DNA from: Patescibacteria group bacterium
GTDB taxonomy: Bacteria > Patescibacteriota > Microgenomatia > UBA8517
Direction: 5' to 3'
Length of the DNA: 64,000 bases
Assembly: GCA_038061225.1 (NCBI GenBank)
Contig: JBBTZT010000002.1
Location: 12,655 to 76,654, forward strand
The notes under the pieces are model-generated. The model made no database searches. It was not told the DNA's origin and saw only the letters and a program-made list of their open reading frames with translations. A program made the position numbers and the translations under genes. Position 1 is the first letter of the stretch. The number at the start of each line of letters is the position of its first letter. Positions 129-29,608 of the stretch are shown here, piece after piece.

Positions 129-1517
129 ATGAATAAAAAATATTATGTAACCACGGCAATTGATTACACTAATGATGTAATTCACATTGGCCATGCATAT
201 CAAAAAATATTGGCGGATGTTTTAGCTCGTTATCATCGGCAAATTGGTGATAAAACATACTTTTTGACAGGTACGGATGAGCACGGGCAAAAAGTAGAAA
301 GTAGTGCGAAAGAAAAAGGTATTAACCCTAAAGATTTTGTTGACAAAATTGCAAAAGAAGATAAAAAACAATGGGATAAATTAAATATTTCTTATGATCG
401 ATTTATTAGAACCACGGATGCAGATCATGTTAAATTTTCACAAGAATTTTATCTAAAAGCAAAAGCCAATGGTGATATTTATAAAGCAAAGTATAAAGGA
501 TTTTATTGTGAAGGCTGTGAGTCGTTTAAAGAAGCTTCTGAATTAAATGAAGAAAAATGTGAATTCCATCCAACAAAAAAGATACAAAAAATAGAAGAGC
601 AAAATTATTTTTTTGCTCTCTCCAAATATCAAAAGTTTTTATTAAATCACATCAAAAAACACCCAGAATTTATCTGGCCAGAATCAAGAAGGAACGAAAT
701 TCTATCATTTATAAAATCAGGATTAAAAGATTTTTCGATCAGTCGCCAAAATGTAACTTGGGGTATTTCAGTTCCAGACGATCCGACACACACAATCTAT
801 GTCTGGTTTGACGCTTTGATCAATTATTTAACTTATGGCGATTCAATGAAATGTTGGCCTGCGGATATTCACATACTGGGCAAGGACAATCAAAGATTTC
901 ATGCTATATATTGGCCAGCAATGTTAAAATCTGCAGGATACAAATTACCAAAAACGATATTGGTTCACGATTTTATTTCACTAGATGGTCAAAAAGTTAG
1001 TAAATCTCTAGGAAACGTAATTTTACCGAGCGAACTTATTAAAAAGTTTGGAGTTGATGGAGTAAGGTACTTCTTTTTAAGACACGGCCCACTCGCTAAC
1101 GATATTGATATAACTTTGGATAAAATCCAAAATGTATACAATTCAGATCTTGCAAATGGGCTTGGTAATTTAGTTTCCAGAGTTGCGAAACTCTGTGAAA
1201 AGTCTGGTTTTGTTTTTAAATCAAAACAAACAAAATTATATCCTGAGGTAGTAAAATCGCTAGAAGAATTTAGGTTTGATGAGGCATTAAAAATAATCTG
1301 GAACAAAATTACTCAAGTTGATCAAGAAATAAACAAAACAGAACCTTGGAAATTAGAGGGTAAAAAATTAAAAAAGTTTTTAGAAAATACTATCTCATCT
1401 ATACAGCACATAACATATAGCTTAAAGCCTTTTCTTCCTGAAACTGCAGAAAAAATTACAAAAATATTTAAAGGACCTAAAATAAAAGCACCTGAACCAT
1501 TATTCCCCCGTATATGA
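129..1517 (+). CDS. metG: Methionyl-tRNA synthetase, minimal form without the C-terminal tRNA-binding domain
   Basis: Class I aaRS HIGH motif (VIHIGHAYQ), KMSKS motif (KVSKSLGN) and a Cys knuckle (CEGCESF...CEFH). The 462-aa length fits a core-only MetRS. Confidence 0.85.
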   Translation: MNKKYYVTTAIDYTNDVIHIGHAYQKILADVLARYHRQIGDKTYFLTGTDEHGQKVESSAKEKGINPKDFVDKIAKEDKKQWDKLNISYDRFIRTTDADHVKFSQEFYLKAKANGDIYKAKYKGFYCEGCESFKEASELNEEKCEFHPTKKIQKIEEQNYFFALSKYQKFLLNHIKKHPEFIWPESRRNEILSFIKSGLKDFSISRQNVTWGISVPDDPTHTIYVWFDALINYLTYGDSMKCWPADIHILGKDNQRFHAIYWPAMLKSAGYKLPKTILVHDFISLDGQKVSKSLGNVILPSELIKKFGVDGVRYFFLRHGPLANDIDITLDKIQNVYNSDLANGLGNLVSRVAKLCEKSGFVFKSKQTKLYPEVVKSLEEFRFDEALKIIWNKITQVDQEINKTEPWKLEGKKLKKFLENTISSIQHITYSLKPFLPETAEKITKIFKGPKIKAPEPLFPRI

Positions 1518-3004
1518 GAAGTTTTATAATTAGACATGACAAGCAGGTTTTAAGAGCCTTTGAAATTCTTCCAGGATTTTTTTCTTGGAACATGATTTTA
1601 CTTCCCTACTGGGGAATTTTTGTTTTTCCTAACTTTGTTGCCTACTTTGTACTTTTATTTAACGTTTACTGGTTTTATCAGTCTTTTTTAATTGCTATCA
1701 CATCAGTTATCTCTCACACAAAAATTCAAGCAGCAATTAATTATGACTGGGTTGGTGATTTAAAAACATTTCCAGATTGGGACAAAGTACATAATGTTGT
1801 AATTATTCCTACATATAAAGAACCATTACATATTTTGGAAAGAACAATAAATTCATTAAAAAACCAAACTCTTCCAACAAGGATGATTACTGTAATTCTT
1901 GCCATGGAAGAGAAAGAATCCAGAGAAGATAGAGATGAAAAATGGAAAGCATTAACATATAAATTTGAAGGGGTTTTTGGAAATTTTTTAAGAACTAATC
2001 ATAAATTAGTAGTGGGTGAGGTTGTGGGCAAAGCTTCAAATGAAAAATTTGCGGCTGTTTGGTACAAGAAGAACTTTATTGACCTCACAAAAATGGATAT
2101 AAATTACATTACTGTAACTAGTTGTGATGCAGACCATAAATATCACCCTAACCATTTTGCCTGTCTTTCATTTAAGTTTCTTGATTGCCCAACAAGATAT
2201 AGACACTTTTGGCAACCAGCAGTTATGTTTTATAACAACATCTGGGAACTCCCTGCAATTACAAGGGTTCCAAATACTTTTGGATCAATTTGGAATTTAT
2301 CACAGCTTTCAAGAAAAGACAGACTTATAAATGCCCAAAACTATTCACTTTCATTTAAATTGCTTGACGAAGTTGGATACTGGGATGCAGATAAAATTCC
2401 TGAAGATTGGGGTATATTTTTTAAAGCATACTACAGGGTTAAAGGTGGGCTTGAAGTTGAACCTATTTATCTTCCATTACATGCCGATGCTGCTCAGTCT
2501 ACAACAACATGGAAAACAATGAAAAGTCAATATGAACAATATAAAAGATGGGCATGGGGAACATCAGACGATTCATGGATAATTAGAAATTATTTAATTG
2601 ATAAAGATATTCCTTTTTGGGACAAAACAACAAGGCTGGGATTTGTATTGTGGGCTCATTTTATGTGGCCAGTCAATTGGTTCATTATAACTATTGGACT
2701 TACATTACCAACACTTATTAATCCTGCCTTTGGTAGAACAGTATTAGGGTTTATGGTTCCAAAATTATCATCCATTATCTTGACTCTTTCTCTTGGTTTC
2801 TTTTTCGTTTTGTTTTTCATAGATAATGTATACAAACCAAAAAGACCTATTGGAATGTCAGTTTGGAGATCAATATTAATGCCTTTTGAATTTATTTTAA
2901 TGCCTGTTGCAGGATTTTTCTTTTCAGCCCTCCCAGGTCTTGACGCCCACACAAGACTGATGCTTGGAAAATATATACAGTACAAAGTTACCGAAAAGGT
3001 TTAA
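1514..3004 (+). CDS. Processive family-2 glycosyltransferase (cellulose/chitin-synthase-like) with C-terminal TM helices
   Basis: N-terminal TM, GT-A-like region (VVIIPTYKEP; TSCDAD) and a QxxRW motif (QYKRWAWG), followed by several hydrophobic helices. The start overlaps the metG stop by 4 bp. Confidence 0.65.
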   Translation: MRSFIIRHDKQVLRAFEILPGFFSWNMILLPYWGIFVFPNFVAYFVLLFNVYWFYQSFLIAITSVISHTKIQAAINYDWVGDLKTFPDWDKVHNVVIIPTYKEPLHILERTINSLKNQTLPTRMITVILAMEEKESREDRDEKWKALTYKFEGVFGNFLRTNHKLVVGEVVGKASNEKFAAVWYKKNFIDLTKMDINYITVTSCDADHKYHPNHFACLSFKFLDCPTRYRHFWQPAVMFYNNIWELPAITRVPNTFGSIWNLSQLSRKDRLINAQNYSLSFKLLDEVGYWDADKIPEDWGIFFKAYYRVKGGLEVEPIYLPLHADAAQSTTTWKTMKSQYEQYKRWAWGTSDDSWIIRNYLIDKDIPFWDKTTRLGFVLWAHFMWPVNWFIITIGLTLPTLINPAFGRTVLGFMVPKLSSIILTLSLGFFFVLFFIDNVYKPKRPIGMSVWRSILMPFEFILMPVAGFFFSALPGLDAHTRLMLGKYIQYKVTEKV

Positions 3005-3948
3005 AACGATTTGTAATATTTAATTGTTTTTTGAAGACCCTCTTTAAGTTCTACTTTTGGCTCCCAATTTAATGTTTTTCTTGCTTTCGTAATATCTGGA
3101 CACCTTTGCATTGGGTCGTCTGGTCTAAATTTGCCAGAATAAACAACTTTAGATTTACTATTTGTCAATTTAATTACTATTTCTGCTAGTTCCTTAATTG
3201 CAAATTCATCCGGATTTCCGAGATTAAATATTTCACCCTTTGTTTTATTAGTAAACATTGCCTTTTTAATTCCATCAACTAAGTCTGATACATAACAAAA
3301 TGACCTTGTTTGACTTCCATCACCATCTATTTTGATATCTTCATTTTTTAAAGCCCAGTTTATAAAGTTACTAACTACCCTACCATCATCTTTTTGCATC
3401 TGGGGGCCATAAGTGTTAAATATTCTAATTATTCTTGCATCAATATCATATTTATTTAAATACACATAAGTTGCTGTTTCAGCGAATCTTTTACTTTCGT
3501 CATAACATGCACGTGGTCCAAATGTATTAACATTACCACAATATGTCTCTTTTTGTGGATGTTCTAATGGATCACCATAAACCTCAGATGTTGAGGCTAT
3601 AAGAATTTTGGCTTTTAAGTCTTTAGCCAGAGCTAGCATATTGACGGTACCCTTAGAGTTAACAAGAAGCGTTTCAAGTGGAAAATTCTGATAATCTATT
3701 GGGGAGGCGGGTGACGCTAAGTGAAAAATAAAATTTGCTGAAGTATTGATTAATTGATTTATTGAATTACTAGTTATATCTGCTTTTATGAAGCTAAAGT
3801 TAGAATTTGTAAGTAAATCTTCTATATTTTTTGAGCTTCCTGTAATTAGATTGTCAAGACACATTACTTCATACCCATCACTTAAAAGAGATTTACATAA
3901 ATGTGAACCAATGAATCCTGCACCACCAGTGACTAATACTTTTTTCAT
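3001..3948 (-). CDS. UDP-glucuronate decarboxylase / UDP-xylose synthase-type SDR epimerase-dehydratase
   Basis: Rossmann motif GGAGFIGSHL and catalytic YDESK (YxxxK). End-to-end similarity to the UXS/ArnA-decarboxylase family (VLVTGGAGFIGSHLC...DNL.TG). Confidence 0.75.
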   Translation of the reverse strand: MKKVLVTGGAGFIGSHLCKSLLSDGYEVMCLDNLITGSSKNIEDLLTNSNFSFIKADITSNSINQLINTSANFIFHLASPASPIDYQNFPLETLLVNSKGTVNMLALAKDLKAKILIASTSEVYGDPLEHPQKETYCGNVNTFGPRACYDESKRFAETATYVYLNKYDIDARIIRIFNTYGPQMQKDDGRVVSNFINWALKNEDIKIDGDGSQTRSFCYVSDLVDGIKKAMFTNKTKGEIFNLGNPDEFAIKELAEIVIKLTNSKSKVVYSGKFRPDDPMQRCPDITKARKTLNWEPKVELKEGLQKTIKYYKSF

Positions 3949-3967
3949 ATGGTAGAATTATAACAGC

Positions 3968-5452
3968 ATGAAGCTTTGGAAGAAACTAATAACTATCATT
4001 GATACCCCACTTTGGCTTGAGATTTTCTTATGTCTACTTCTAGTTTTGAGGATTCCTTCGTTTTTTGAACCATATTATTATGGTGATGAAATGATCTACC
4101 TAGCTCTTGGCCAAGGTCTTAGACAAGGAATCCCTCTTTATTTAGGATTGCATGATAATAAACCACCTCTTCTTTATTTAATTGCTGCCCTAGCCGGAAA
4201 TTTGTTTTTATTTAAAGTAATATTGGCTTTTTGGAGTTTAGCTACAATTTATGTTTTTTGGAAATTAGTTAAACATCTCTTCCCAAAACAAGTAAGACTT
4301 CAAAACATATCTACTATCATCTTTGGCATACTAACCACAATTCCACTTTTTGAAGGCAATACAGTAAACGCTGAGTTGTTTATGATTGGTCCTGTAATTT
4401 TAGCTTTTCTAATTTTATTATCCAAAAAGAACAATCTTAAAAACTTATTAATTTCTGGCTCTTTAATTTCAATTGCAGCCCTTTTCAAAATTCCAGCAGC
4501 TTTTGATATTTTAGGAATAATTGCTTTTTGGTTAATATATTTAAAATTTAAAGATGTTAAAGAGTTTGTTGTTAAATCAATTTATTTATTTTTAGGTTTT
4601 ATAATCCCGATAGGTTTAACTTTTGTTTGGTATTATTTTGCGGGTGGTTTTAAGGAATATTTAGTTGCAGTATTTTTACAAAACTTTGGCTATGTTAGTA
4701 GTTGGAGACCAAGTCCTGTAGAGCTTTCATTTATAGAAAAAAATAGTCCATTACTAATTAGGACCGGTGTTATGTTTTTAGGGTTTATCGGACTTTTTAT
4801 ATCAAGAAAAAAACTTTCAAAAGAATTTGTTTTTGTTTCAGCTTGGTTATTGGCAACACTTTTTGCTGTTACATTATCAGAACGTCCTTATCCTCATTAT
4901 TTTGTTCAATCTCTTGCCCCTCTATCAATACTATTGGGGATGTTATTTAGTTTAAAAACAGTAGAACAAAGTTTGACTGTAATTCCATTAACAATTGCAT
5001 TTTTTGTCCCCTTTTATTACAAATTTTGGTATTATCCAACAGCTTCTTATTACACAAGGTTTATTAAATTTGTTACTAAACAAACAACAAAACAGGAATA
5101 TTTTAAAAGTTTCTCTCCCAATGTTACATTAAATTATGAAATTGCTGATTTTCTTGCTAAATCCTCTACAAAAAATGATAGAATCTTTGTTTGGAGCAAT
5201 GATTCATCTGCAATTTACTCTTTGTCAAGAAGACTCCCACCTATAAAATATGTTGCTGATTATCACTTTAGGGATTTTTCAAATCCTAACGAGGTCATAA
5301 ACATCCTTACTAAAACAATGCCAAAGTTTATAGTTATTACTTCAAGCTCTTTTCCTTTTCCTGAGCTTAATACTTTTGTAAATGAAAATTATTATATAAT
5401 TTCTGAGATCGGCACAAGTCAAATATGGCTTTACATAAATCAAGGTGAATAA
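3968..5452 (+). CDS. GT-C family glycosyltransferase (ArnT/PMT-like, polyprenyl-phosphate-sugar dependent)
   Basis: A polytopic membrane protein. The first extracytoplasmic loop carries YYYGDEMIY, the DE motif of ArnT/PMT GT-C enzymes. There are about 11 predicted helices and a C-terminal soluble domain. Confidence 0.6.
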   Translation: MKLWKKLITIIDTPLWLEIFLCLLLVLRIPSFFEPYYYGDEMIYLALGQGLRQGIPLYLGLHDNKPPLLYLIAALAGNLFLFKVILAFWSLATIYVFWKLVKHLFPKQVRLQNISTIIFGILTTIPLFEGNTVNAELFMIGPVILAFLILLSKKNNLKNLLISGSLISIAALFKIPAAFDILGIIAFWLIYLKFKDVKEFVVKSIYLFLGFIIPIGLTFVWYYFAGGFKEYLVAVFLQNFGYVSSWRPSPVELSFIEKNSPLLIRTGVMFLGFIGLFISRKKLSKEFVFVSAWLLATLFAVTLSERPYPHYFVQSLAPLSILLGMLFSLKTVEQSLTVIPLTIAFFVPFYYKFWYYPTASYYTRFIKFVTKQTTKQEYFKSFSPNVTLNYEIADFLAKSSTKNDRIFVWSNDSSAIYSLSRRLPPIKYVADYHFRDFSNPNEVINILTKTMPKFIVITSSSFPFPELNTFVNENYYIISEIGTSQIWLYINQGE

Positions 5453-5460
5453 ATTTCATT

Positions 5461-5853
5461 ATGAATATGAATAAATTTCATTTCAAATTAAAAAAGGTTC
5501 CTGTAATCAAAATTGACCCGCGTTTTGAAAAATTACCATTAAGACATCTTTTTATAATTTCTCTTGTTATTAATTGTGTTTTAATTCTGTCAGGACTTTT
5601 TGCAAAATTTGTCTTACCTCCAGAAATACCTTTATATTATGGGCTTCCTAAGAATGAAGACCAACTTGCCAATTCAATTTATATTATTTTACCGGCCTTA
5701 ATGTCAATTTTAGTTACAATTATTAATGCAGCGCTATCTGTTATTTCAAATAGTGTTTACCTTAAAAAAACTCTTGCTTTTGCTTCTATTTTAGTAACAA
5801 TTTTAAGTATTGTTGCAACTTACAAAATAATATTTTTAGTTGGTTCATTTTAA
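5461..5853 (+). CDS. Small integral membrane protein, hypothetical
   Basis: Three to four hydrophobic helices with no recognisable motif. Co-directional with the glycan cluster. Confidence 0.3.
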   Translation: MNMNKFHFKLKKVPVIKIDPRFEKLPLRHLFIISLVINCVLILSGLFAKFVLPPEIPLYYGLPKNEDQLANSIYIILPALMSILVTIINAALSVISNSVYLKKTLAFASILVTILSIVATYKIIFLVGSF

Positions 5854-6883
5854 TAAAATGTTAAAAATAACAAATCTTTTATTTATTCCTTTATTTATAG
5901 CATTTTTAGTTTCGTATTTTATTACTCCTGTTGTTATTAAATACGCAAAAATATTAAAAATCATGGACGATCCAAAGAAAAATAGACATCCAAAAGTAAT
6001 ACATACTACGCCAATTCCCAGAGGCGGCGGAATACCTGTTTTTCTCTCAATTTTAGTGGCTTCATTAATTTTTATACCTGTTGATAAACATTTAATATCA
6101 ATTTTACTGGGCGCATTTGTGATATTTATAATGGGATTTTTAGATGATAGATATAATCTAAACCCTTATTTAAGAATAGGTCTTGGATTTTTAGCAGCCA
6201 TTATTCCAATCGCTTCAGGTATTGGGATAGCTTTTTTAACCAATCCTTTTGGAGGTATCTTTGACCTTTCAAATCCAATTATTTCTGATATTTTTGCTCT
6301 AGTTTGGATTGTCTTTATGATGAATATGCTAAACATGGGGGCCAAAGGAATTGATGGTCAGCTTTCAGGTGTTACAATCATTTCAGCTCTAACAATCACT
6401 GCTCTTTCCTTTTACTATTCCTCAGATATCACACAATGGCCAGTGATATTAATAACAGGAATAACTGCTGGCGCATTTTTAGGTTTTCTTCCATGGCACA
6501 AGTATCCTCAAAAAATTATGCCAGGCTATGGAGGTGCAACATTAGCGGGTTATATGCTTGCAATTGCCTCAATACTTTCAACCACCAAAGTGGGAACGTT
6601 AATTGTAGTTTTAGGCATCCCTTTAATAGATACGGGGTATACTATCATTAGAAGAATTCTGTCAGGTAAATCCCCCGTCTGGGGTGACAGAGGGCATCTA
6701 CATCATAAATTACTAGACTCTGGTCTTTCAAAAAAACAAGTGTCCCAAATTTATTGGTCACTGACTGCAATACTTGGGATTTTAGCTCTTAATTTGAATA
6801 GTACATATAAGTTATATACAATCATAGGAGTATCGTTAGTTTTAGGAGGTTTAATACTATGGTTGACTTACCGATCCAGATAA
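5840..6883 (+). CDS. MraY/WecA-family polyprenyl-phosphate N-acetylhexosamine-1-phosphate transferase (GT4 family)
   Basis: Ten or so TM helices and a DDxxN-type motif (FLDDRYNLNPYLRIGLGF). The overall family pattern includes MNMLNMGAKGIDG. Confidence 0.7.
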   Translation: MVHFNKMLKITNLLFIPLFIAFLVSYFITPVVIKYAKILKIMDDPKKNRHPKVIHTTPIPRGGGIPVFLSILVASLIFIPVDKHLISILLGAFVIFIMGFLDDRYNLNPYLRIGLGFLAAIIPIASGIGIAFLTNPFGGIFDLSNPIISDIFALVWIVFMMNMLNMGAKGIDGQLSGVTIISALTITALSFYYSSDITQWPVILITGITAGAFLGFLPWHKYPQKIMPGYGGATLAGYMLAIASILSTTKVGTLIVVLGIPLIDTGYTIIRRILSGKSPVWGDRGHLHHKLLDSGLSKKQVSQIYWSLTAILGILALNLNSTYKLYTIIGVSLVLGGLILWLTYRSR

Positions 6884-7818
6884 GCGAGCTTGTTTTGCAA
6901 ATAATTCGTGTGGCAAGACCCATTCATTGGGTTAAGAATCTTGCCCTTTTTGGGGCATTACTTTTAACAGGAACTCTTTATGAAACAGGTCTTTTTAAAG
7001 ATGTTCTTTTGGCTTTCTTTTCTTTTTCTTTTGCTACTTCTGCAACTTATATTTTTAATGACATATTAGATTCAAAATCAGATAGACTTCATCCTGTCAA
7101 AAAAAACAGACCGATCGCTTCAAGTAAATTACCTTTTTCAATTGCTGTATTTGAACTATTAGGCTTTATATTCATGTCGTTAGTTTTGGCCATACCCTTA
7201 AATCAAATATTTACTATTTTAATTTTGATATATATAGGATTGCAGATTTTGTATAGTTTAGGTCTTAAAAATATACCTGTTATTGATATTTTAATTATTG
7301 CTACAGGTTTTATTTTAAGAGTCTACGGCGGAGCCGTTGTAATTAATGCTCACCTTTCAGTTTGGTTTCTACTTTGTGTGGTTTCTGCCTCATTATTTTT
7401 AGCCGCAGGGAAAAGAAGGGCTGAAATAAATTTGCTTGAAGCTGTTGATGGAGGGACAAGAAAAAGCCTTACTAAATACTCAAAAGAGTTATTAAATAGC
7501 TATGTTACAATGTTTGGTAATGCTACTTGGATGAGTTGGAGCCTTTATACTTTTTTTGAATCCCCAAAAGCATCCTTAAACTTTTGGTTAGTCTTGGCTG
7601 AAGTTTCAAGGGCCACAACTATTAATAAACTAATGATGTTAACAATTCCTGTTGTAATTTTTGGAATTATGCGATATGAAGCTTTAATTTTTGAAGGCAA
7701 ATCAGAAGCTCCTGAAAAACTTTTGTTAACAGATAAAGCACTCTTAACTGCTGTTATCCTTTGGATATCAATTGTTTATTGGATTATTTATTCTGGAGTA
7801 TCTGTTAGCGGAATATAG
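6859..7818 (+). CDS. UbiA-family prenyltransferase, decaprenyl-phosphate phosphoribosyltransferase (DPPR synthase)-like
   Basis: First Asp-rich motif NDILDSKSDRLHPVKKNRPIASSKL (NDxxDxxxD) and polytopic topology. The 4-bp-coupled start overlaps the end of the upstream gene. Confidence 0.65.
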   Translation: MVDLPIQISELVLQIIRVARPIHWVKNLALFGALLLTGTLYETGLFKDVLLAFFSFSFATSATYIFNDILDSKSDRLHPVKKNRPIASSKLPFSIAVFELLGFIFMSLVLAIPLNQIFTILILIYIGLQILYSLGLKNIPVIDILIIATGFILRVYGGAVVINAHLSVWFLLCVVSASLFLAAGKRRAEINLLEAVDGGTRKSLTKYSKELLNSYVTMFGNATWMSWSLYTFFESPKASLNFWLVLAEVSRATTINKLMMLTIPVVIFGIMRYEALIFEGKSEAPEKLLLTDKALLTAVILWISIVYWIIYSGVSVSGI

Positions 7819-8687
7819 ATTTTTGTTACATATTCACCACTTACCCACCCTTCTACCGGTGCAGCCGGCCAAGCTTCGCTTATCTCTCCTATTTTTATTT
7901 TAAACCAACTGCTATCTTCATTTTCTTCAATCACTTCATATTCTTCGCCTGGTTTAACTTCTGCTACTTCAGGAAAATTTACTCCCGCTCCCTGTCTAAC
8001 TCTTAAAAAACCTATGTCTGTTTTGTTTATAACGATAGTTGGAAGCATTTTCACTCTTGTTTTTATTTCAGTTGGTTTAAGTAATTCTTTTCCATCAGTT
8101 GCTGGTGTTTCGTTTGATTTTGCTAATTTTACTGAAGCTGTTAATTTATAACCTGCATAGACTTTAATAGGAAGAGATTTTTCTAAATATTTATCAGCAG
8201 AAACAATTAAATTATGATCTCCAGCAGGAACTTTTACACGGAGTGGTGTATATCCATATATTTTATTATCAATTAAAACTTGTGCATTATCAGGAACTGA
8301 CACAACAGTAATATATGATTCTTTACCACCCAGTTTTTCAAAAGATACAACTACTCCACTTGAGCTTTCTTCTGTTTCTCTAAAAACTCTTTTAACAATT
8401 GTCCTAATTCCTGAAACCAAATTTATTTTAGTTTCATAATCATCTAAAATAATATTATTAACACTATCTGGTTTTATTCTTAAAAGAATTTCTCCAGGAT
8501 TTCTATTTACTTCATATGGAGTTTTACCAACTTCTTGATTATTTATATAAACAGTTGAAATAGGGTCTGCTTCTACTAAAATTCCAGCTTCTTGGACATT
8601 AAAAAAATCGAGTAATAATAAAACCAATAAACCTAGGACAATGATTCCAGTCAAGACCAAAACAATTTTGACAATTTTCTTTTTCAT
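7788..8687 (-). CDS. PEGA-domain membrane-anchored protein
   Basis: N-terminal TM anchor. Two PEGA-like beta motifs (VYINNQEVGKTPYEV; VLIDNKIYGYTPLRVKV) and a C-terminal SH3-like segment. Confidence 0.5.
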   Translation of the reverse strand: MKKKIVKIVLVLTGIIVLGLLVLLLLDFFNVQEAGILVEADPISTVYINNQEVGKTPYEVNRNPGEILLRIKPDSVNNIILDDYETKINLVSGIRTIVKRVFRETEESSSGVVVSFEKLGGKESYITVVSVPDNAQVLIDNKIYGYTPLRVKVPAGDHNLIVSADKYLEKSLPIKVYAGYKLTASVKLAKSNETPATDGKELLKPTEIKTRVKMLPTIVINKTDIGFLRVRQGAGVNFPEVAEVKPGEEYEVIEENEDSSWFKIKIGEISEAWPAAPVEGWVSGEYVTKIYIPLTDTPE

Positions 8688-8754
8688 ATGTTCTTTAGTG
8701 TATCAGATTTTAAAAAAAATCCTTTGAGTATTCATATGTTACAATATGGCTATT

Positions 8755-8828
8755 GATCCGGTGCTAGAGTGGCCATAGGGCGGTCTGCAAAACCGTTTAC
8801 ATGGGTTCAAATCCCATCCGGATCTCCC
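8755..8828 (+). tRNA. tRNA-Cys (anticodon GCA)
   Basis: Cloverleaf read by hand. The acceptor is GATCCGG/CCGGATC. The anticodon stem is GCGGT/ACCGT with loop CTGCAAA. The T arm is ATGGG-TTCAAAT-CCCAT and the discriminator is U. Confidence 0.75.
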
Positions 8829-8864
8829 AGCTCCGATTTGAATTTATATTATCGTTTTTTATTA

Positions 8865-9452
8865 TCAACAAGATTGTTCCACTTTGCCCACAAAGGTAAC
8901 ATCTTTACCCCAATCATAATCTTCACTCCCAGGTAAACTCTCATCGAATTTATATTTTCCCCAAAATTCTTTTTTAATCAATGAGTTAGTATTTGATATC
9001 CAAGGAGTATAATCCTCTCGCTTTTTAAAAAATGGAAAATATAAAAAGACAATGTTTCCTAAAAACCTAGACCAATAACCCACTATAAAGTCTGAATAAT
9101 AGCCACTAAGTCCTGCAAGAGTTTTTTCTTTCATCAAGACATTAACTCCACTTGCAAGCCAATTGTTAGAAATCGGAATAGAATGGCCACTCAGAATACA
9201 AATGTATTTGCCCTTTGCTTTGTTTATACCGTAATTGAGTGAATATCCGTAAGTAAAATCTTTTTGACTAATTTTATATAAACGGATTGGAAACTTTTTA
9301 ACAATTTCGAGCGTCTGATCAGTTGATCCCGAATCAACAATTATAATTTCAAAATTTTTGAAAGTTTGTTTTAAAAGTAGATTTAAAACTTTACCTAAAT
9401 ATTTAGCCTCATTTTTAGTTCTTATAACAATACTTACAAGTGGATTTTCCAT
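8865..9452 (-). CDS. Family-2 glycosyltransferase (short)
   Basis: N-terminal GT-A signature VSIVIRTKNEAKYL...IIIVDSGSTDQT. Confidence 0.6.
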   Translation of the reverse strand: MENPLVSIVIRTKNEAKYLGKVLNLLLKQTFKNFEIIIVDSGSTDQTLEIVKKFPIRLYKISQKDFTYGYSLNYGINKAKGKYICILSGHSIPISNNWLASGVNVLMKEKTLAGLSGYYSDFIVGYWSRFLGNIVFLYFPFFKKREDYTPWISNTNSLIKKEFWGKYKFDESLPGSEDYDWGKDVTFVGKVEQSC

Positions 9453-9582
9453 AATTAAGAAACTATATAACTCATTACTTAATGATTATTTCCAGTAACT
9501 CAGGAAATTTGTCTGTTTTCATATCAGTTTCTATTTTATCATCTTTAAAGCAATTAATTCTAGAATGATTTAAAATATAGAC

Positions 9583-9810
9583 ATGATAAGAAGTGTTGCA
9601 TATTCTCAAAATCTACTAGTTGATGACAACTTGGTCGAAAAACTTGTTTCGTCATCTCATATTAACAATGGTGATACAGTTTTAGAAATTGGTGCTGGAA
9701 AAGGAATAATAACTAAAGAGCTTTTAAAAAAGGCAGGTAATGTTGTGGTTTTTGAAATTGATCAAGAACTTGTAAATTCGTGGCAGTTACGATTGTATCC
9801 CATAATTTGA
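9583..9810 (+). pseudogene. Truncated N-terminal fragment (75 aa) of a KsgA/RsmA/Erm-type rRNA adenine dimethyltransferase
   Basis: QNLLVDDNLVEKL...VLEIGAGKGIITKELLKKAGNVVVFEIDQELV matches the SAM-binding N-terminus of the family. The ORF stops after about 75 of the expected 260 aa. Confidence 0.5.
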
Positions 9811-23523: not shown

Positions 23524-26058
23524 TTATTTAAAAAATAGTCTAGCCCTAAAATTCTTGGCTAGTGTTGTATTATAGACCGAAAGGTTTCTTCCCGTCAATA
23601 CAAGATTTGTTGTCTTTATATTTATTGTTAAATTGTCCTCTTCTGTACCTGCTTGTTTTATTATATTTAGGTTGTATTCTCCACCTTGAGAAAATTTATT
23701 ATCAAAAATACTCCACACAATTTGTATTCTCTTTTGAGTACCAGGTAATATCTCAAATAAAAACCCTACTTCAACTCTTGTTTCCATATTATTAATATCA
23801 TACTCAAGTTCTTTATATGTACCATTGGTTTCATATATTCTAACCCCAGCCAATTTAGTATTTAAGGGTAACAAAATTCTAGCGTAGTTTTTATAAACAC
23901 CCGATTTTCCAACAGCAGGACTGGCGGAGTTTTCATAAGTAACAAATAATTCATGACTTATAATTTCCTTTGAAACAGAAAGGTTTAATTCCTGTGACCT
24001 CTTGATGAAAAGGTTTGATTTGTTTACCCCTAAATTTGCATCTATCAAAGAATAACCATCTTTTAAACATCGTTGACCGCAAGTGGTATCTAAATTTATT
24101 TCTCCAGAATAGCCTAAGTTTGAGATTGCTTCTTGAGCATTAACATCGTGCAAATAAATTTGTAAATGTTTTCTATCCAAGCTTTGATAGATTTTTCTGA
24201 AAAGGTTTAGGTGTTTGTCACTTTTTAAATTTTCTATTTCAGAAATAATATTTCTTGAAAGAGAGGTTAAGATGCTTGCTTTTTTGATTGAACCTGGGAA
24301 AAAATCATCTTCTACTTCTGATTGAACAGTCTGATATAAATTGTTTGAATCAATTGTCAAGCCAAAATCAGATAAATTTATTGGTCCAGTTACTTCAAGT
24401 AAATTTTTTACAAAATTTAGGTCTATTGCAATTACACCATCAAATTTTTCATTTAATTCTTTATCCAAAAACCATTCTGCTTTGACAGCAGAGACAGAAA
24501 AATCTGGATCCCAATTGGAATCACGTAAAAACCAACCACCTTCTCCTAAATACTTTCTTATTGGCTCAGGTGGATCTACATGACCTTTTAACTGTCCATC
24601 TGCAGTATAAACATCGTTTACTACAATTTCTGCCAACCTTCCTTTATCAAAAGTCATTATGGCATAAGAACCAATAAATCCTCCTGTGGGACGTAGTTCC
24701 ATGTTATTTTGGAAAAGGAATAGATATTTTTGTGGTTTTTCATTACCTAATAAAATCGAAATTCTTGAGAAAAAGTTCTTAAGAGAATATATTTTGCTTT
24801 TGTATTCACCTATGTCTATGTTTCTATTTGATAAATTGTTTCTTAAAAGTTTTCCCAAAAATCCATCGAGTTCTATTACATCACTTTGAAGAAAACTTAT
24901 TTCTGTGTGAATTTTATCTAAACTTGCTGAGATATTGTTTGAATAAGATGATAAATCATAAATCTCATCTCCTGTAATTTTATTTACAAAATCATCAGTT
25001 GTACTAATTAATATTTGTGCTTCTCTTCCGAGTAATGATAATTTATAGGTAATGTTTGAGGTATCATATATAAAATTGTTTCCAAAACTTAAATTTTTAG
25101 CCATATTTGAGATTTCTGAACTTTGTTTAATCAAAATCTTTGATAGTTTATTATTACTAAACATTGTTTTTGTTGAAACAAAAAGTAAAAATGATGAAAG
25201 AGCAGTTAAAACAAAAGGTATTAAATAAATAGATATTAAAAGAATACTTATTTTTAACATTTTTTTGTATTTTATCGAAGGAGTTTTTTTTACAGATTTT
25301 TTTGACAGCTCAATTTCAGGAATTATCAAACTCTTTTTAACAATAGTGTCGGTGGTGGAAGCAAAATATTTTTTTGTATTATTAACAGCCAAACTTAATG
25401 AATAATCAACATCTATTGAAGCAGAATAATATAACTCCACCAAATCTGATTCTTCTGGTGTTTCAATTATATTTAAGTTTTCAACTCCCAAGTATTTAGT
25501 AACAAAAATTCTTTTACTCTTTTTGGGACCATTAAGTACAATTATTTGTCCTGATACTCCAAATGAAAAGGTATCTCTTACTATTCTCTCTACAAGTTTA
25601 TTAATAGAAACGGTGTTTATTAAAAAATTATCTTTCTTAATTTTTACCCTTTCACTTAAAATAGATTGCATTATTAAATCGTGAGATAAACAGTCTGGAT
25701 TATTTTTTACGTTGTTTCCTAAAACATCTGGAACAAGAAGGACTCCAAGGTTTTGGTTTGATTCAATTAGTTTTAAAATTTCAGAATCTGAAACAAATTT
25801 TTGATTCTTTCTTACAAAGAGTGGATGTAAAACTAATATTTTACATTCTAAATCTTTTATATTTTGATAGATACTTGATAATTTATCATTTAAATCAAGT
25901 AAGTTAATAATCAGATAATTAAAACTCGAAGTGTTAATATTTTCAAAATCATTAAAAATTTTTACATCTAAATATTTCTCTCTAAATTTTTCTTCAAGTT
26001 TTAAGGATAAAGCATTTTTTTGAGAATATATTCCAACTATTCCATCGTAATCCTTCAT
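23524..26058 (-). CDS. Large membrane-anchored protein with DUF4012-like C-terminal domain
   Basis: Central TM. The segment QNNMELRPTGGFIGSYAIMTFDKGRLAEIVVNDVYTADGQL resembles DUF4012 proteins, which are found in polysaccharide loci. Confidence 0.4.
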   Translation of the reverse strand: MKDYDGIVGIYSQKNALSLKLEEKFREKYLDVKIFNDFENINTSSFNYLIINLLDLNDKLSSIYQNIKDLECKILVLHPLFVRKNQKFVSDSEILKLIESNQNLGVLLVPDVLGNNVKNNPDCLSHDLIMQSILSERVKIKKDNFLINTVSINKLVERIVRDTFSFGVSGQIIVLNGPKKSKRIFVTKYLGVENLNIIETPEESDLVELYYSASIDVDYSLSLAVNNTKKYFASTTDTIVKKSLIIPEIELSKKSVKKTPSIKYKKMLKISILLISIYLIPFVLTALSSFLLFVSTKTMFSNNKLSKILIKQSSEISNMAKNLSFGNNFIYDTSNITYKLSLLGREAQILISTTDDFVNKITGDEIYDLSSYSNNISASLDKIHTEISFLQSDVIELDGFLGKLLRNNLSNRNIDIGEYKSKIYSLKNFFSRISILLGNEKPQKYLFLFQNNMELRPTGGFIGSYAIMTFDKGRLAEIVVNDVYTADGQLKGHVDPPEPIRKYLGEGGWFLRDSNWDPDFSVSAVKAEWFLDKELNEKFDGVIAIDLNFVKNLLEVTGPINLSDFGLTIDSNNLYQTVQSEVEDDFFPGSIKKASILTSLSRNIISEIENLKSDKHLNLFRKIYQSLDRKHLQIYLHDVNAQEAISNLGYSGEINLDTTCGQRCLKDGYSLIDANLGVNKSNLFIKRSQELNLSVSKEIISHELFVTYENSASPAVGKSGVYKNYARILLPLNTKLAGVRIYETNGTYKELEYDINNMETRVEVGFLFEILPGTQKRIQIVWSIFDNKFSQGGEYNLNIIKQAGTEEDNLTINIKTTNLVLTGRNLSVYNTTLAKNFRARLFFK

Positions 26059-26125
26059 ATTATATTCATTGTAGTTCAGAATAGAAAGTCATGCAATTTT
26101 TTACCGCAGCGATTAAAAACTGTTA

Positions 26126-26554
26126 TCAAAAATTGTTTTCTATTTTCCCGTTGAGGTCTAATTCTTCATTCACCAAATCATCAGCCAAAGTGTTCTTGGT
26201 TCTATAATCCCACTGAAACTTAATTGATAAAGAAGAATTAAGAATTAAGAATTTTATTTGATTAAATAAAATTTTTAATTTTGGGTTTTTAACTTTATAA
26301 AAACCTTTAAGCTGTCTTTCAATAAGTTGAGAGTCAAGATTAATAACGACAGGCGAAAAGTGATTAGTGGTTGGTGATTGGTGAGTAAGCCATTCAATCG
26401 CCATTAACACTGCTGTGTATTCAGCAACGTTGTTTGTCTCCATACCTAAAAACTTACTTTCTTTGTAAATTGTTTTTCCATTTTCAGTCACAACAATGGC
26501 TGAAGCTGCAGGTCCTGGATTACCTCTTGAACCACCATCGCAATATATAATCAT
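26126..26554 (-). CDS. rnhA: Ribonuclease HI
   Basis: IIYCDGGSRGNPGPAASAIVV...ETNNVAEYTAVLMAIEW and a C-terminal D...D. Confidence 0.8.
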   Translation of the reverse strand: MIIYCDGGSRGNPGPAASAIVVTENGKTIYKESKFLGMETNNVAEYTAVLMAIEWLTHQSPTTNHFSPVVINLDSQLIERQLKGFYKVKNPKLKILFNQIKFLILNSSLSIKFQWDYRTKNTLADDLVNEELDLNGKIENNF

Positions 26555-26568
26555 AATTTGCTATAGAA

Positions 26569-27667: not shown

Positions 27668-28114
27668 TTACTTAGGTTTGATTACTAGATATCTTTCAGG
27701 TTCAAGACCACTAGATTCTGTCGTTACGTCGTTTCGGTCTGCGAGATGCATATGAACAGCACGCCTTTGGCCTGCCGTCAAATTATAAATGGGTTGGGGT
27801 TCTTTGGTTTCAATTGCCCTATCCGCTGATTGATTAGCAAGCTCTTTTAGTTTTTCTTCTTGTTTTTCTCTATAATCTCCAACATTAACAATTAGTCTGT
27901 ACCACTCTCCTGTTTGGCCTTTAAGCATTATTCCTAACACTGTTTGGATAGCATTTATATTCTCACCCCTAAAACCAATTAAAAGTCCTGTTTCGTCTTC
28001 TGTAGAAAGGTTGACTTCATAAGTAGATTCACCCAAATCAACCACTTCAATTTCAGCGGTTATACCTGCAAGTGTTAGAAGTTTTTCAGTTAATATTTTT
28101 ATTTGATCATTCAC
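27668..28114 (-). CDS. jag: Jag/KhpB-like KH + R3H RNA-binding protein
   Basis: R3H element LTAGQRRAVHMHLA. Located directly downstream of yidC. Confidence 0.7.
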   Translation of the reverse strand: MNDQIKILTEKLLTLAGITAEIEVVDLGESTYEVNLSTEDETGLLIGFRGENINAIQTVLGIMLKGQTGEWYRLIVNVGDYREKQEEKLKELANQSADRAIETKEPQPIYNLTAGQRRAVHMHLADRNDVTTESSGLEPERYLVIKPK

Positions 28115-28121
28115 AGGGTGA

Positions 28122-29414: not shown

Positions 29415-29428
29415 GAATAAAATTATTC

Positions 29429-29572
29429 TTAGGCATTTACAAGATTTTTTCTTCCTTTTAATCTTCTTCTTTTTAAAACTTTCCTACCATCAGTAGAAGA
29501 ATTTCTTTTCATAAATCCAAATTTTTTAATTCTTTTTAGTTTGTGTGGTTGATATGTTCTTTTTGTCGCCAT
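29429..29572 (-). CDS. rpmH: Ribosomal protein L34 (47 aa). It is absent from the ORF track.
   Basis: Hand translation gives [47 protein letters not shown]. This is the classical L34 directly upstream of rnpA. Confidence 0.8.
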
Positions 29573-29608
29573 GCGATTATTTTACCATACTTTTTGACTA
29601 TTGCATAT

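What the first reader, a model, noticed from the sequence alone, without database searches (positions are those of the whole stretch)
1514..9452. Envelope glycan cluster combining a UbiA-type phosphoribosyl/prenyl transferase, a GT-C transferase and UDP-xylose synthase
The cluster encodes the following. The last four combine as in the mycobacterial decaprenyl-phospho-arabinose route:
- a processive GT2 with QxxRW;
- a UDP-glucuronate decarboxylase, which makes UDP-xylose;
- an ArnT/PMT-like GT-C, which uses lipid-phosphate-sugar donors;
- a MraY/WecA-type initiating transferase;
- a UbiA-family enzyme with NDxxDxxxD that resembles decaprenyl-phosphate 5-phosphoribosyltransferase.

The cluster also carries PEGA and GT2 genes. 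This combination predicts a lipid-linked pentose (ribose, arabinose or xylose) glycopolymer on the cell surface. That would be unexpected for a reduced-genome organism.
Basis: partly seen in the sequence, partly recalled or inferred. Interest (0 to 1): 0.55.

Follow-up and report, generated by a model that had tools for sequence, protein, structure and literature searches.

The report
Woesebacteria lipid-linked pentose envelope glycan operon
A tiny-genome Woesebacteria bacterium carries a strongly conserved operon that should load a five-carbon sugar (probably ribose) from PRPP onto a membrane lipid and attach it to a surface glycan outside the cell, a known strategy seen here in a new gene arrangement and lineage.

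Summary

**Organism.** It is a Candidatus Woesebacteria (Patescibacteria). NCBI already names the identical UbiA-type protein "decaprenyl-phosphate phosphoribosyltransferase".

**The UbiA homologue is a PRPP-dependent polyprenyl-phosphate phosphoribosyltransferase (PPPRS).**
- It scores 218.6 bits against an NCBIfam equivalog with a cut-off of 207.
- It aligns over its full length with Rv3806c (PDB 8j8j, E 2e-37).
- Twelve of 13 Mg/PRPP-site and motif residues checked are identical; the thirteenth is a known Tyr-to-Phe variant.
- It groups with PPPRSs against E. coli UbiA, MenA and CyoE in 100 of 100 bootstraps.

**The conserved core.** In 79 non-redundant related genome loci the core is GT2 synthase, GT-C, a new 3-TM protein, a WecA-like transferase and PPPRS, followed by a convergent PEGA/SH3 gene.

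**Accessory genes.** UXS is a genuine UDP-xylose synthase, but it sits in a variable slot and occurs in only 28-32 loci. The 195-aa GT2 is strain-specific.

**Genes not found.** No DprE1/DprE2, phosphatase or known flippase lies in the window or within about 10 kb of the PPPRS gene in any related locus. The arabinose (DPA) reading is therefore unsupported, and lipid-linked ribofuranose is the parsimonious donor.

**Closest known system.** It is the PPPRS plus GT-C pentofuranose system of Kelly et al. 2024.

**Verdict.** New variant of a known kind, of moderate interest.

The parts
1514..3004 (+). Membrane GT2 of the processive-synthase type (496 aa; DxD, ED and QxxRW motifs). It is probably the first gene of the glycan operon, and its start overlaps the MetRS stop by 4 bp.
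   Evidence: Pfam Glyco_trans_2_3 3.6e-7. Motifs are invariant. More than 4480 homologues exist, and the top 120 are at least 70% identical. It directly abuts the GT-C gene (6-35 bp) in 10 of 51 loci. The AlphaFold model is poor (pLDDT 58); its best Foldseek hits are BcsA and hyaluronan synthase at low TM-score.
3001..3948 (-). UDP-glucuronate decarboxylase (UDP-xylose synthase). It is an accessory gene in a variable slot.
   Evidence: Human UXS1 (4gll) 2.9e-95. The GGAGFIGS, ASTSEVYGDP and YDESK motifs are conserved. It occurs in 28-32 of 79-81 related loci, and in 22 of the 51 slots that could be scored.
3968..5452 (+). GT-C-fold glycosyltransferase of a lineage-specific family, with an invariant D40-E41 after TM1 and a C-terminal alpha/beta domain predicted to lie outside the membrane.
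   Evidence: AlphaFold pLDDT 82.6, pTM 0.85. Foldseek finds ArnT 5f15 at 2.5e-6 (TMq 0.57), then AglB/STT3, DPY19, ALG9, AftD and PimE. Invariant residues are listed. It is present in 75-77 of 79-81 loci.
5461..5853 (+). Small three-helix membrane protein of unknown family, with the conserved loop motif LPPxVPLFYGxPxGExQL. It is a candidate GT-C partner or lipid-sugar translocation factor.
   Evidence: It is present in 73-76 of 79-81 loci. The motif is shown. It has no Pfam or PDB match. There are 433 representative clusters at E<=0.001; the best 150 listed are all 79-169 aa, with no fusions.
5840..6883 (+). Polyprenyl-phosphate sugar-1-phosphate transferase (PNPT), closer to WecA/TagO than to MraY. 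It is the predicted initiating enzyme.
   Evidence: Pfam Glycos_transf_4 1.9e-24. WecA model 102.7 bits against MraY 47.4 bits, both below their cut-offs. PDB MraY 5jnq 1.1e-11. It is present in 77-79 of 79-81 loci, with a median gap to the PPPRS gene of -31 bp.
6859..7818 (+). Polyprenyl-phosphate 5-phosphoribosyltransferase (PPPRS; DPPR-synthase family within the UbiA superfamily).
   Evidence: NCBIfam NF008978 218.6 bits against a cut-off of 207. 8j8j 2.1e-37 over residues 9-306. Twelve of 13 Mg/PRPP-site and motif residues are identical, and Y157 is F (residues from PMC10994848). The clade is supported in 100 of 100 bootstraps.
7788..8687 (-). Membrane-anchored PEGA + SH3_3 surface protein, convergent with the PPPRS gene. 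It is a conserved neighbour; whether it is an acceptor, a scaffold or unrelated is unknown.
   Evidence: PEGA 1.8e-15 and SH3_3 5.4e-8. One N-terminal TM helix. It is present in 75 of 79 loci, with a median gap of -4 bp.
8755..8827 (+). tRNA-Cys(GCA), a conserved landmark that bounds a strain-specific insertion.
8865..9452 (-). Short GT2 (195 aa). It is strain-specific, probably an accessory gene or a remnant, and is not part of the conserved system.
   Evidence: Glycos_transf_2 4.2e-24. There is only one weak match (29% identity) in the 81 related loci. It lies next to a truncated rRNA adenine dimethylase fragment at 9583-9810.

Best explanation
This is a conserved Woesebacteria cell-envelope glycan operon: GT2 synthase, GT-C, a small 3-TM protein, a WecA-like PNPT and PPPRS.

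**Shown by sequence and structure comparison**
- The last gene encodes a membrane phosphoribosyltransferase with the complete PRPP/Mg site of M. tuberculosis Rv3806c.
- The second gene encodes a GT-C-fold enzyme, a class that uses polyprenyl-phosphate-linked sugars outside the membrane.

**Inferred**
1. On the cytoplasmic face, PPPRS transfers 5-phosphoribose from PRPP to polyprenyl phosphate.
2. The product is dephosphorylated by an unidentified phosphatase and flipped across the membrane. The conserved 3-TM protein is the only candidate in the operon for flipping or for helping the GT-C.
3. The GT-C transfers the pentofuranose onto an acceptor outside the cell.
4. The acceptor is most likely a glycan started on polyprenyl phosphate by the WecA-like enzyme and extended by the GT2 synthase.

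No epimerase accompanies the operon in any related locus, so the sugar is most simply ribofuranose.

The slot between the GT2 and GT-C genes holds strain-variable accessory genes: UXS here, and a second GT-C, a GT2, a sugar transferase or transporters elsewhere. These would diversify the glycan. In this genome UXS would supply UDP-xylose for a cytoplasmic transferase.
For: **PPPRS assignment**
- NCBIfam equivalog score above its cut-off.
- Full-length match to Rv3806c, the only PDB chains found.
- R22, K28, Y70, N73, D74, D77, D81, K87, R90, Q135, Y138 and K143 are all identical, and Y157 is F. The residue roles come from PMC10994848.
- It is monophyletic with seven PPPRSs, to the exclusion of E. 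coli UbiA, MenA and CyoE, in 100 of 100 bootstraps.

**GT-C fold.** ArnT is the best match and all top hits are GT-C enzymes. An invariant DE follows TM1.

**Operon structure**
- The core genes are present in 73-79 of 79 loci.
- Median gaps are 1 bp (3-TM protein to GT4) and -31 bp (GT4 to PPPRS).
- The GT2 gene abuts the GT-C gene in 10 of 51 loci.

**Purifying selection.** Median identity to the window across 31 complete loci is 70% for the GT2, 63% for PPPRS and 63% for GT4, against 48% for MetRS.

**Precedent**
- PPPRS + GT-C systems add ribofuranose when no epimerase is present (PMC11127046).
- A Legionella replicon listed in the plasmid collection carries a bare PPPRS + GT39 pair.
- A Lactococcus plasmid carries a candidate GT-C (annotated hypothetical, 533 aa) + PPPRS + HAD + GtrA.

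**No epimerase, phosphatase or flippase.** None is found in the window or within about 10 kb of the PPPRS gene in 81 related loci.
Against: - No phosphatase, epimerase or recognised flippase was found nearby, so three steps have no assigned protein.
- Whole genomes could not be searched. DprE1/DprE2 could be encoded elsewhere, as they are in mycobacteria.
- All 80 related loci come from one class whose wider neighbourhood (M23, HhH-GPD, GroEL) is also syntenic. Part of the linkage may therefore be inherited gene order rather than function.
- The GT-C shows no membrane-domain sequence similarity to the GT-C partners of other PPPRS loci. Its donor cannot be read from sequence.
- The acceptor is unknown.
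- The GT2 model is low confidence.
- No UDP-glucose dehydrogenase, which would feed UXS, lies in the window.
Confidence: 0.55

Rival explanations
1. This is a true DPA-like arabinose route. PPPRS makes polyprenyl-phosphoribose, DprE1/DprE2-type enzymes encoded elsewhere in the genome epimerise it to polyprenyl-phospho-arabinofuranose, and the GT-C is an arabinofuranosyltransferase, as in mycobacteria or in P. aeruginosa pilin glycosylation.
For: PPPRS is the committed enzyme of that route. Per PMC11127046, DprE1/DprE2 follow the PPPRS step. From my own knowledge, in M. tuberculosis they are encoded away from ubiA, so absence within about 10 kb is not decisive. AftD and EmbB appear among the weaker structural matches of the GT-C. 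The C-terminal domain of the GT-C resembles that of a GT39 in the Chondrinema PPPRS + DprE1-like + DprE2-like locus (E 1.8e-6).
Against: tblastn with the Chondrinema DprE1-like and DprE2-like proteins found nothing in the 64-kb window or in 81 related loci. No FAD_binding_4 or extra SDR family recurs among the neighbours. In the non-actinobacterial arabinose systems seen here and in PMC11127046, the epimerase genes are clustered with the PPPRS gene.
Confidence: 0.17
2. The genes are neighbours by inherited gene order but serve separate pathways. For example, the GT-C might use a polyprenyl-phosphate hexose made by another enzyme to glycosylate proteins or peptidoglycan. The PPPRS product might then feed an unrelated process, and the WecA-like enzyme and GT2 might build an independent polymer.
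For: The whole region from MetRS to GroEL is syntenic across the 80 loci. The GT-C family is unrelated in sequence to the other PPPRS-associated GT-Cs. No flippase or phosphatase ties the steps together.
Against: The core genes overlap or are separated by a few bases and stay contiguous even in the most divergent loci (56-58% identity). The flanking genes, in contrast, drift by kilobases. Every characterised PPPRS feeds a GT-C (PMC11127046). Unrelated taxa independently pair a PPPRS with a GT-C.
Confidence: 0.15
3. The SDR at 3001-3948 is not a UDP-xylose synthase. Instead it is the lipid-linked pentose epimerase (like ORF13 of C. youngae O2) that converts polyprenyl-P-ribofuranose to polyprenyl-P-xylofuranose, so this strain would add xylofuranose.
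For: ORF13 is an SDR of the GalE type and alone determines xylofuranose versus ribofuranose (PMC11127046). A haloarchaeal PPPRS locus has a divergently placed SDR. The window SDR is divergently adjacent to the GT-C gene, 19 bp away.
Against: The protein matches human UXS1 at 2.9e-95 over its full length and keeps the UXS catalytic residues. The haloarchaeal SDR is only 24% identical to it and is not UXS-like. The gene is absent from most related loci.
Confidence: 0.05
4. The UbiA homologue is an ordinary aromatic or lipid prenyltransferase (MenA, UbiA or archaeal-lipid type), and there is no pentose chemistry.
For: It carries the Pfam UbiA domain and the generic NDxxDxxxD motif. JGI's automatic name is "4-hydroxybenzoate polyprenyltransferase".
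Against: The next-best NCBIfam models other than the PPPRS models and the 152-bit PRK08238 "UbiA family prenyltransferase" model score at most 47 bits, against 218. No other UbiA-family structure is matched in the PDB. The phosphoribose-binding residues, which PMC10994848 says are not conserved in prenyltransferases, are all present. Identity to E. coli UbiA, MenA and CyoE is 18-21%, and the separation holds in 100 of 100 bootstraps.
Confidence: 0.02

Closest known systems
Three-component extracytoplasmic pentofuranose glycosylation systems (C. youngae O1/O2 ORF15 PPPRS + MATE flippase + GT136 GT-C; Kelly et al., PNAS 2024, PMC11127046)
   Same: A PRPP-dependent UbiA-type PPPRS is encoded beside a GT-C-fold transferase whose nearest solved relative is ArnT. 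No DprE1/E2 is present, which in that framework predicts ribofuranose. Accessory genes vary between strains.
   Different: - The PPPRS has no fused HAD phosphatase domain (319 aa), and no separate phosphatase is nearby.
- There is no MATE, GtrA or SMR flippase. An uncharacterised 3-TM protein is conserved in that position instead.
- The PPPRS gene overlaps a WecA-like PNPT gene.
- The GT-C belongs to a lineage-specific family. Membership of GT136 could not be tested.
- The host is a probably Gram-positive-type Patescibacterium, not an LPS producer.
Mycobacterial decaprenyl-phospho-arabinose (DPA) pathway (Rv3806c, Rv3807c, DprE1/DprE2, Rv3789, Emb/Aft GT-Cs)
   Same: The first enzyme is the same: 31-33% identity over the full length with an identical PRPP/Mg site. 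As in arabinogalactan synthesis, a lipid-linked pentose donor would be used by a GT-C enzyme, and a WecA-type initiator is encoded in the same system.
   Different: No PAP2 phosphatase, DprE1, DprE2 or GtrA-like gene is found in the window or within about 10 kb of the PPPRS gene in 81 related loci. The GT-C is small (494 aa), resembles ArnT and is not an Emb/Aft family member. The sugar is therefore not shown to be arabinose.
ArnT / Arn pathway (undecaprenyl-phosphate-L-Ara4N transfer to lipid A)
   Same: ArnT is the best structural match of the GT-C (5f15, TMq 0.57). In both systems a UDP-glucuronate decarboxylase-type SDR sits in the locus.
   Different: There is no ArnB, ArnC or ArnD, and no lipid A. 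The SDR here is a plain UXS orthologue and is dispensable across the lineage. The lipid-sugar synthase is a PRPP-dependent UbiA-type enzyme, not an ArnC-type GT2.
Minimal PPPRS + GT39 gene pairs in other bacteria (for example Legionella adelaidensis NZ_LR134420.1; Lactococcus plasmid pLLF27D with HAD and GtrA)
   Same: A PPPRS is adjacent to a GT-C with no epimerase. The Legionella pair also lacks a local phosphatase and flippase.
   Different: Those GT-Cs share no detectable sequence similarity with the Woesebacteria GT-C. They also lack the coupled WecA-like gene and the 3-TM protein.

Membership tests
Polyprenyl/decaprenyl-phosphate 5-phosphoribosyltransferase (PPPRS / DPPR synthase, UbiA superfamily) | Scores above the curated cut-off of an equivalog HMM | tested here: met
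   NF008978 218.6 bits against a cut-off of 207. Two sister models fall below their cut-offs (NF008977 214.7 against 234; NF008976 161.8 against 474). The 152-bit PRK08238 "UbiA family prenyltransferase" model comes next, and all other prenyltransferase models score at most 47 bits.
Polyprenyl/decaprenyl-phosphate 5-phosphoribosyltransferase (PPPRS / DPPR synthase, UbiA superfamily) | Mg2+ and PRPP-binding residues of Rv3806c (R22, K28, Y70, N73, D77, K87, R90, Q135, Y138, K143, Y157) | tested here: met
   Ten of these 11 residues are identical, and Y157 is F, a variant the authors report in mycobacteria (residues from PMC10994848).
Polyprenyl/decaprenyl-phosphate 5-phosphoribosyltransferase (PPPRS / DPPR synthase, UbiA superfamily) | Groups with characterised or annotated PPPRSs rather than with UbiA, MenA or CyoE | tested here: met
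   Neighbour-joining tree, 100 of 100 bootstraps. Identity is 28-34% to PPPRSs and 18-21% to E. coli UbiA, MenA and CyoE.
Polyprenyl/decaprenyl-phosphate 5-phosphoribosyltransferase (PPPRS / DPPR synthase, UbiA superfamily) | Catalyses PRPP + polyprenyl-P to polyprenyl-P-ribose-5-P | not testable with these tools
   Needs the membrane assay of PMC11127046.
Mycobacterial DPA (arabinose) pathway | DprE1 (FAD oxidase) and DprE2 (SDR reductase) epimerase pair | tested here: not met
   No tblastn hit (E<=0.01) with the Chondrinema DprE1-like and DprE2-like proteins in the window or in 81 related loci. No such Pfam family appears among the neighbours. Whole genomes were not searchable.
Mycobacterial DPA (arabinose) pathway | PAP2 phosphatase (Rv3807c) and GtrA-like Rv3789 | tested here: not met
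   No hit with PAP2, HAD, GtrA or EamA reference proteins. The 3-TM protein matches no family.
Mycobacterial DPA (arabinose) pathway | Emb/Aft-type arabinofuranosyltransferase | tested here: not met
   The GT-C fold is present, but the best match is ArnT. AftD reaches only 5.6e-3 and EmbB 0.73.
Three-component pentofuranose system (PMC11127046) | PPPRS adjacent to a GT-C-fold transferase | tested here: met
   They lie in the same operon in 75-77 of 79-81 loci.
Three-component pentofuranose system (PMC11127046) | Phosphoribose phosphatase (HAD PRP domain or equivalent) | tested here: not met
   The PPPRS is 319 aa with no extra domain, and no HAD or PAP2 gene is nearby.
Three-component pentofuranose system (PMC11127046) | Dedicated flippase (MATE, GtrA or SMR) | tested here: not met
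   None is found. One EamA and two ABC transporter genes appear only sporadically in the variable slot.
Three-component pentofuranose system (PMC11127046) | GT-C belongs to CAZy GT136 | not tested
The GT-C is unrelated in sequence to the candidate Lactococcus and the Legionella partner GT-Cs.
UDP-xylose synthase (UDP-glucuronate decarboxylase, extended SDR) | Full-length similarity to characterised UXS, plus the GxxGxxG, T-x-E and Y-x3-K catalytic motifs | tested here: met
   4gll and 2b69 at about 3e-95 (322 bits). GGAGFIGS, ASTSEVYGDP and YDESK align with the same motifs in UXS1.
Processive membrane GT2 synthases (BcsA / hyaluronan synthase / chitin synthase type) | D, DxD, ED and QxxRW signature | tested here: met
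   DAD205-207, E297-D298 and Q342/R345/W346 are invariant.
Processive membrane GT2 synthases (BcsA / hyaluronan synthase / chitin synthase type) | Transmembrane channel-forming architecture | tested here: inconclusive
   Hydropathy finds one N-terminal and three C-terminal hydrophobic peaks. The AlphaFold model is poor (pLDDT 58). BcsA and hyaluronan synthase are the top Foldseek hits, but at TM-scores of 0.27-0.35.
PNPT (MraY/WecA) family | Pfam Glycos_transf_4 domain; equivalog-level assignment to WecA or MraY | tested here: inconclusive
   The domain is met (86.9 bits against a cut-off of 27). The WecA model scores 102.7 against 326 and the MraY model 47.4 against 192, both below their cut-offs. 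The protein is therefore a PNPT nearer to WecA whose substrate is not assigned.

The most novel reading that the evidence does not exclude
The operon may be a complete, minimal and lineage-wide pathway for an essential wall-linked pentofuranose polymer in Woesebacteria, functionally comparable to arabinogalactan or teichoic acid.

In this reading, the WecA-like enzyme makes the lipid-linked primer. One or two lineage-specific GT-Cs then polymerise ribofuranose outside the cell from polyprenyl-P-ribose. Because no phosphatase is present, the unit transferred could instead be 5-phosphoribose, giving an anionic polymer. The conserved 3-TM protein would be a new kind of lipid-sugar flippase or an obligatory GT-C subunit.
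Probability: 0.15. Interest if true: 0.7.

Novelty: new variant of a known kind. Interest (0 to 1): 0.45.

Why it matters
Patescibacteria have tiny genomes and depend on contact with host cells, yet almost nothing is known about their surface chemistry.

This operon takes up about 6 kb of genomes of roughly 0.8-1.1 Mb. Its enzymes are better conserved than methionyl-tRNA synthetase, which points to an important envelope function.

If the prediction holds, it would:
- give the first defined surface-glycan pathway for a whole class of candidate-phyla-radiation bacteria;
- extend lipid-linked pentofuranose glycosylation to a new phylum and a new gene architecture;
- nominate a new small membrane protein family and a new GT-C family for study.

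The hypervariable accessory slot also suggests strain-level surface diversification. That could matter for host or phage recognition.

Tried and rejected
1. **UXS as a lipid-linked pentose epimerase (ORF13-like).** Rejected. It matches human UXS1 at 2.9e-95 with the catalytic residues intact. The SDR of a haloarchaeal PPPRS locus is only 24% identical to it.
2. **The 3-TM protein as GtrA, SMR or GacJ-like.** It has no Pfam or PDB match, even when ten members were scanned. A search of 1.84 billion representatives found only stand-alone proteins of 79-169 aa among the best 150, so no informative fusions.
3. **Sequence link between the Woesebacteria GT-C and the GT-C partners of other PPPRS loci.** None was found. 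The only exception is the C-terminal domain of one Chondrinema GT39.
4. **AlphaFold model of the 496-aa GT2.** Confidence is low (pLDDT 58), so the Foldseek ranking is only suggestive.
5. **Promoter and terminator scan.** The counts were not clearly above shuffled controls, so it was uninformative.
6. **Literature searches** pairing Patescibacteria, Woesebacteria or CPR with decaprenyl, DprE1, UbiA, GT-C or pentofuranose found no paper linking them.
7. **Genome-wide search for DprE1/DprE2, a phosphatase, UDP-glucose dehydrogenase or PRPP synthetase.** This was not possible, because only about 10 kb on each side of the PPPRS gene could be fetched.
8. **Phage collection.** Only one unannotated 6.6-kb record carries a homologue. 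It was not pursued.

Full report
**What is there.** The window is a 31-35% GC bacterial chromosome segment. It contains rnpA, yidC, dnaA, dnaN, groES/EL, several tRNA synthetases and a tmRNA.

The UbiA-type protein at 6859-7818 is identical to a protein that NCBI names [quoted passage not shown]. Its close relatives come from Candidatus Woesebacteria and Microgenomates.

| Coordinates | Strand | Product |
|---|---|---|
| 1514-3004 | + | GT2 with QxxRW |
| 3001-3948 | - | UXS-like SDR |
| 3968-5452 | + | GT-C-like |
| 5840-6883 | + | MraY/WecA family |
| 6859-7818 | + | UbiA family with NDxxDxxxD |
| 7788-8687 | - | PEGA + SH3 |
| 8865-9452 | - | short GT2 |

One is a conserved 130-aa membrane protein at 5461-5853. 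The other is tRNA-Cys at 8755-8827.

**The UbiA homologue is a PRPP-dependent phosphoribosyltransferase.**
- It scores 218.6 bits on the NCBIfam equivalog NF008978 (cut-off 207). Two sister models give 214.7 and 161.8 bits. The PRK08238 "UbiA family prenyltransferase" model gives 152 bits, and the best of the remaining prenyltransferase models reaches only 47 bits.
- In the PDB it matches only M. tuberculosis Rv3806c: 8j8j at 2.1e-37, query residues 9-306 against chain residues 11-295.
- The Rv3806c structure paper lists the Mg2+, ribose, 5'-phosphate and pyrophosphate ligands. It states that the phosphoribose site is not conserved in ordinary UbiA prenyltransferases (PMC10994848).
- Mapping these residues through alignment A1 shows R22, K28, Y70, N73, D74, D77, D81, K87, R90, Q135, Y138 and K143 identical. 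Y157 is replaced by Phe, a substitution the authors note in some mycobacteria.
- A neighbour-joining tree was built with seven PPPRSs from Mycobacterium, Rhodococcus, Lactococcus, Marivivens, Chondrinema, Legionella and Haloterrigena, plus E. coli UbiA, MenA and CyoE. It places the Woesebacteria proteins inside the PPPRS clade in 100 of 100 bootstraps.

**The other enzymes.**
- *The SDR* matches human UDP-xylose synthase at 2.9e-95 over its whole length. GGAGFIGS, ASTSEVYGDP and YDESK are conserved. It is a genuine UXS.
- *The GT-C* has no sequence match in the PDB. A confident AlphaFold model (pLDDT 82.6, pTM 0.85) matches ArnT best (5f15, E 2.5e-6, TMq 0.57). The following matches are only other GT-C enzymes: AglB/STT3, DPY19, ALG9, AftD and PimE. 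An invariant D40-E41 follows the first helix, as in GT-C active sites.
- *The GT4-family protein* is a PNPT closer to WecA (102.7 bits) than to MraY (47.4 bits), but below both cut-offs.
- *The 496-aa GT2* carries invariant DxD, ED and QxxRW motifs. Sources name it cellulose or PNAG-synthase-like. Its structure model is too weak (pLDDT 58) to add much.

**Conservation and anatomy.** A scan of one genome per GTDB species found at least 557 matched stretches that encode a relative of the query. The 80 best loci look like Woesebacteria or Microgenomates and include closed genomes of 0.82-1.08 Mb.

tblastn and ORF clustering gave these results:
- GT-C, the 3-TM protein, the PNPT and PPPRS are present in 73-79 of 79 non-redundant loci. 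They are always contiguous and on one strand.
- Median gaps are 18, 1 and -31 bp.
- The convergent PEGA/SH3 gene follows in 75 loci.
- The GT2 synthase lies upstream wherever the contig reaches that far. In 10 of 51 loci it abuts the GT-C gene directly (6-35 bp).

The ancestral unit is therefore a five-gene operon.

The space between the GT2 and GT-C genes is a variable slot. UXS is there in 22 loci and a second, unrelated GT-C (PMT_2 8.7e-11) in 17. Other loci hold a GT2, a Bac_transf sugar transferase, EamA or ABC transporters, or a beta-helix protein.

UXS is therefore accessory. The 195-aa GT2 at 8865-9452 lies with a truncated rRNA adenine dimethylase fragment at 9583-9810. Together they look like a roughly 1-kb strain-specific insertion 3' of a conserved tRNA-Cys.

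Across 31 loci that carry all markers, median identity to the window is:

| Protein | Median identity |
|---|---|
| GroEL | 82% |
| GT2 | 70% |
| PPPRS | 63% |
| PNPT | 63% |
| GT-C | 54% |
| MetRS | 48% |

This indicates strong constraint on the operon.

**What is missing.** Reference proteins came from annotated PPPRS loci on replicons in the plasmid collection:
- Chondrinema: PPPRS + FAD oxidoreductase + SDR + several GT39;
- Lactococcus: 533-aa hypothetical protein (candidate GT-C) + PPPRS + HAD + GtrA, with an LCP gene nearby;
- Marivivens: EamA + PPPRS + PAP2;
- Rhodococcus: PAP2 + PPPRS;
- Legionella: PPPRS + GT39 only.

tblastn with these proteins gave no hit for DprE1-like, DprE2-like, HAD, PAP2, GtrA, EamA or LCP in the window or in any of the 81 related loci. 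Pfam scans of the window's ORFs and of recurrent or slot-resident neighbours agree. Whole genomes could not be searched, so absence is shown only locally.

**Comparison with what is known.** Kelly et al. (PNAS 2024, PMC11127046) showed that a PPPRS, a flippase and a GT-C form a widespread system for adding pentofuranoses outside the cytoplasm. The sugar is ribofuranose by default, xylofuranose with an SDR epimerase, and arabinofuranose with DprE1/E2.

The Woesebacteria operon works like this kind of system. It differs in four ways:
- it has no phosphatase domain or gene;
- it has no recognised flippase;
- it has an obligatory WecA-like partner that overlaps the PPPRS gene;
- it has a conserved 3-TM protein of unknown family. 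This protein has the motif LPPxVPLFYGxPxGExQL, predicted from charge distribution to face outward. It has no Pfam or PDB match, and there are 433 representative clusters, the best 150 of which are all stand-alone proteins.

Its GT-C is not detectably related in sequence to the other PPPRS-associated GT-Cs.

No paper in the searchable library links Patescibacteria with this chemistry.

The best reading is a conserved envelope-glycan operon. In it, PRPP-derived polyprenyl-phosphate ribofuranose is the donor for an ArnT-like GT-C. The GT-C acts on a glycan started by the WecA-like enzyme and probably built by the GT2 synthase. Strain-variable accessories, such as UXS here, would decorate the glycan.

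| Reading | Confidence |
|---|---|
| Ribofuranose envelope-glycan operon (best) | about 0.55 |
| Arabinose (DPA) version | about 0.17 |
| Neighbours by inherited gene order only | about 0.15 |

This is a new variant of a known kind. The key gene is already named correctly by automatic annotation, so interest is moderate (0.45).

Noticed in passing
window 27668-32297: Chromosomal replication-origin neighbourhood: Jag/KhpB-like, yidC and rnpA on the minus strand, then dnaA (29660-31030) and dnaN (31188-32297) on the plus strand. The glycan operon lies about 22 kb from dnaA.
   Followed up: no
window 23524-27666: An 844-aa DUF4012 protein (23524-26058) and a Wzy_C / O-antigen-ligase-like membrane protein (26569-27666). 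They could belong to the same envelope-glycan biology, as a ligase or polymerase.
   Followed up: no
window 32895-39154 and 52988-56574: Type IV secretion-like genes: an 891-aa protein with no family, a TraG/VirB4-type P-loop ATPase, a PrgI-like protein and four paralogous T4SS_pilin genes. This resembles the Patescibacteria T4SS described in bioRxiv 10.1101/2025.01.22.634366.
   Followed up: partly
window 39189-39623: A small cytidylyltransferase (CTP_transf_like, 144 aa), about the size of glycerol-3-phosphate cytidylyltransferase TagD. It may hint at a teichoic-acid-type precursor.
   Followed up: no
window 8755-9810: A roughly 1-kb strain-specific insertion 3' of tRNA-Cys. It holds a 195-aa GT2 and a 75-aa N-terminal fragment of an rRNA adenine dimethylase (RrnaAD positions 7-70 of 263). 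Relatives keep the tRNA but lack the insertion.
   Followed up: yes
L079:4164-5498 and 32 other related loci: A second GT-C (about 444 aa, PMT_2 8.7e-11, with a WGDEGFSA motif) lies directly upstream of the conserved GT-C in 33 related loci. It is absent from the window and is not detectably related to the first GT-C.
   Followed up: partly
window 3948-3968: Only 19 bp separate the divergent start codons of UXS and the GT-C gene, so both promoters must lie inside coding sequence or the genes are read through from upstream.
   Followed up: no
L091 (Haloterrigena plasmid NZ_CP149788.1): A haloarchaeal locus combines a PPPRS, a PHP-domain protein, a divergent extended SDR and two GT-C genes. This suggests that archaea also use the lipid-linked pentofuranose strategy.
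   Followed up: partly
window 45618-46124 and 54447-55562: A PemK/MazF-type toxin, and a Fic/DOC protein fused to a MarR-type HTH domain.
   Followed up: no
record titles: Many related MAG contigs are titled "uncultured Gammaproteobacteria bacterium", yet they carry Woesebacteria-type synteny and 58-93% identical proteins. These are probably mislabelled third-party assemblies.
   Followed up: no
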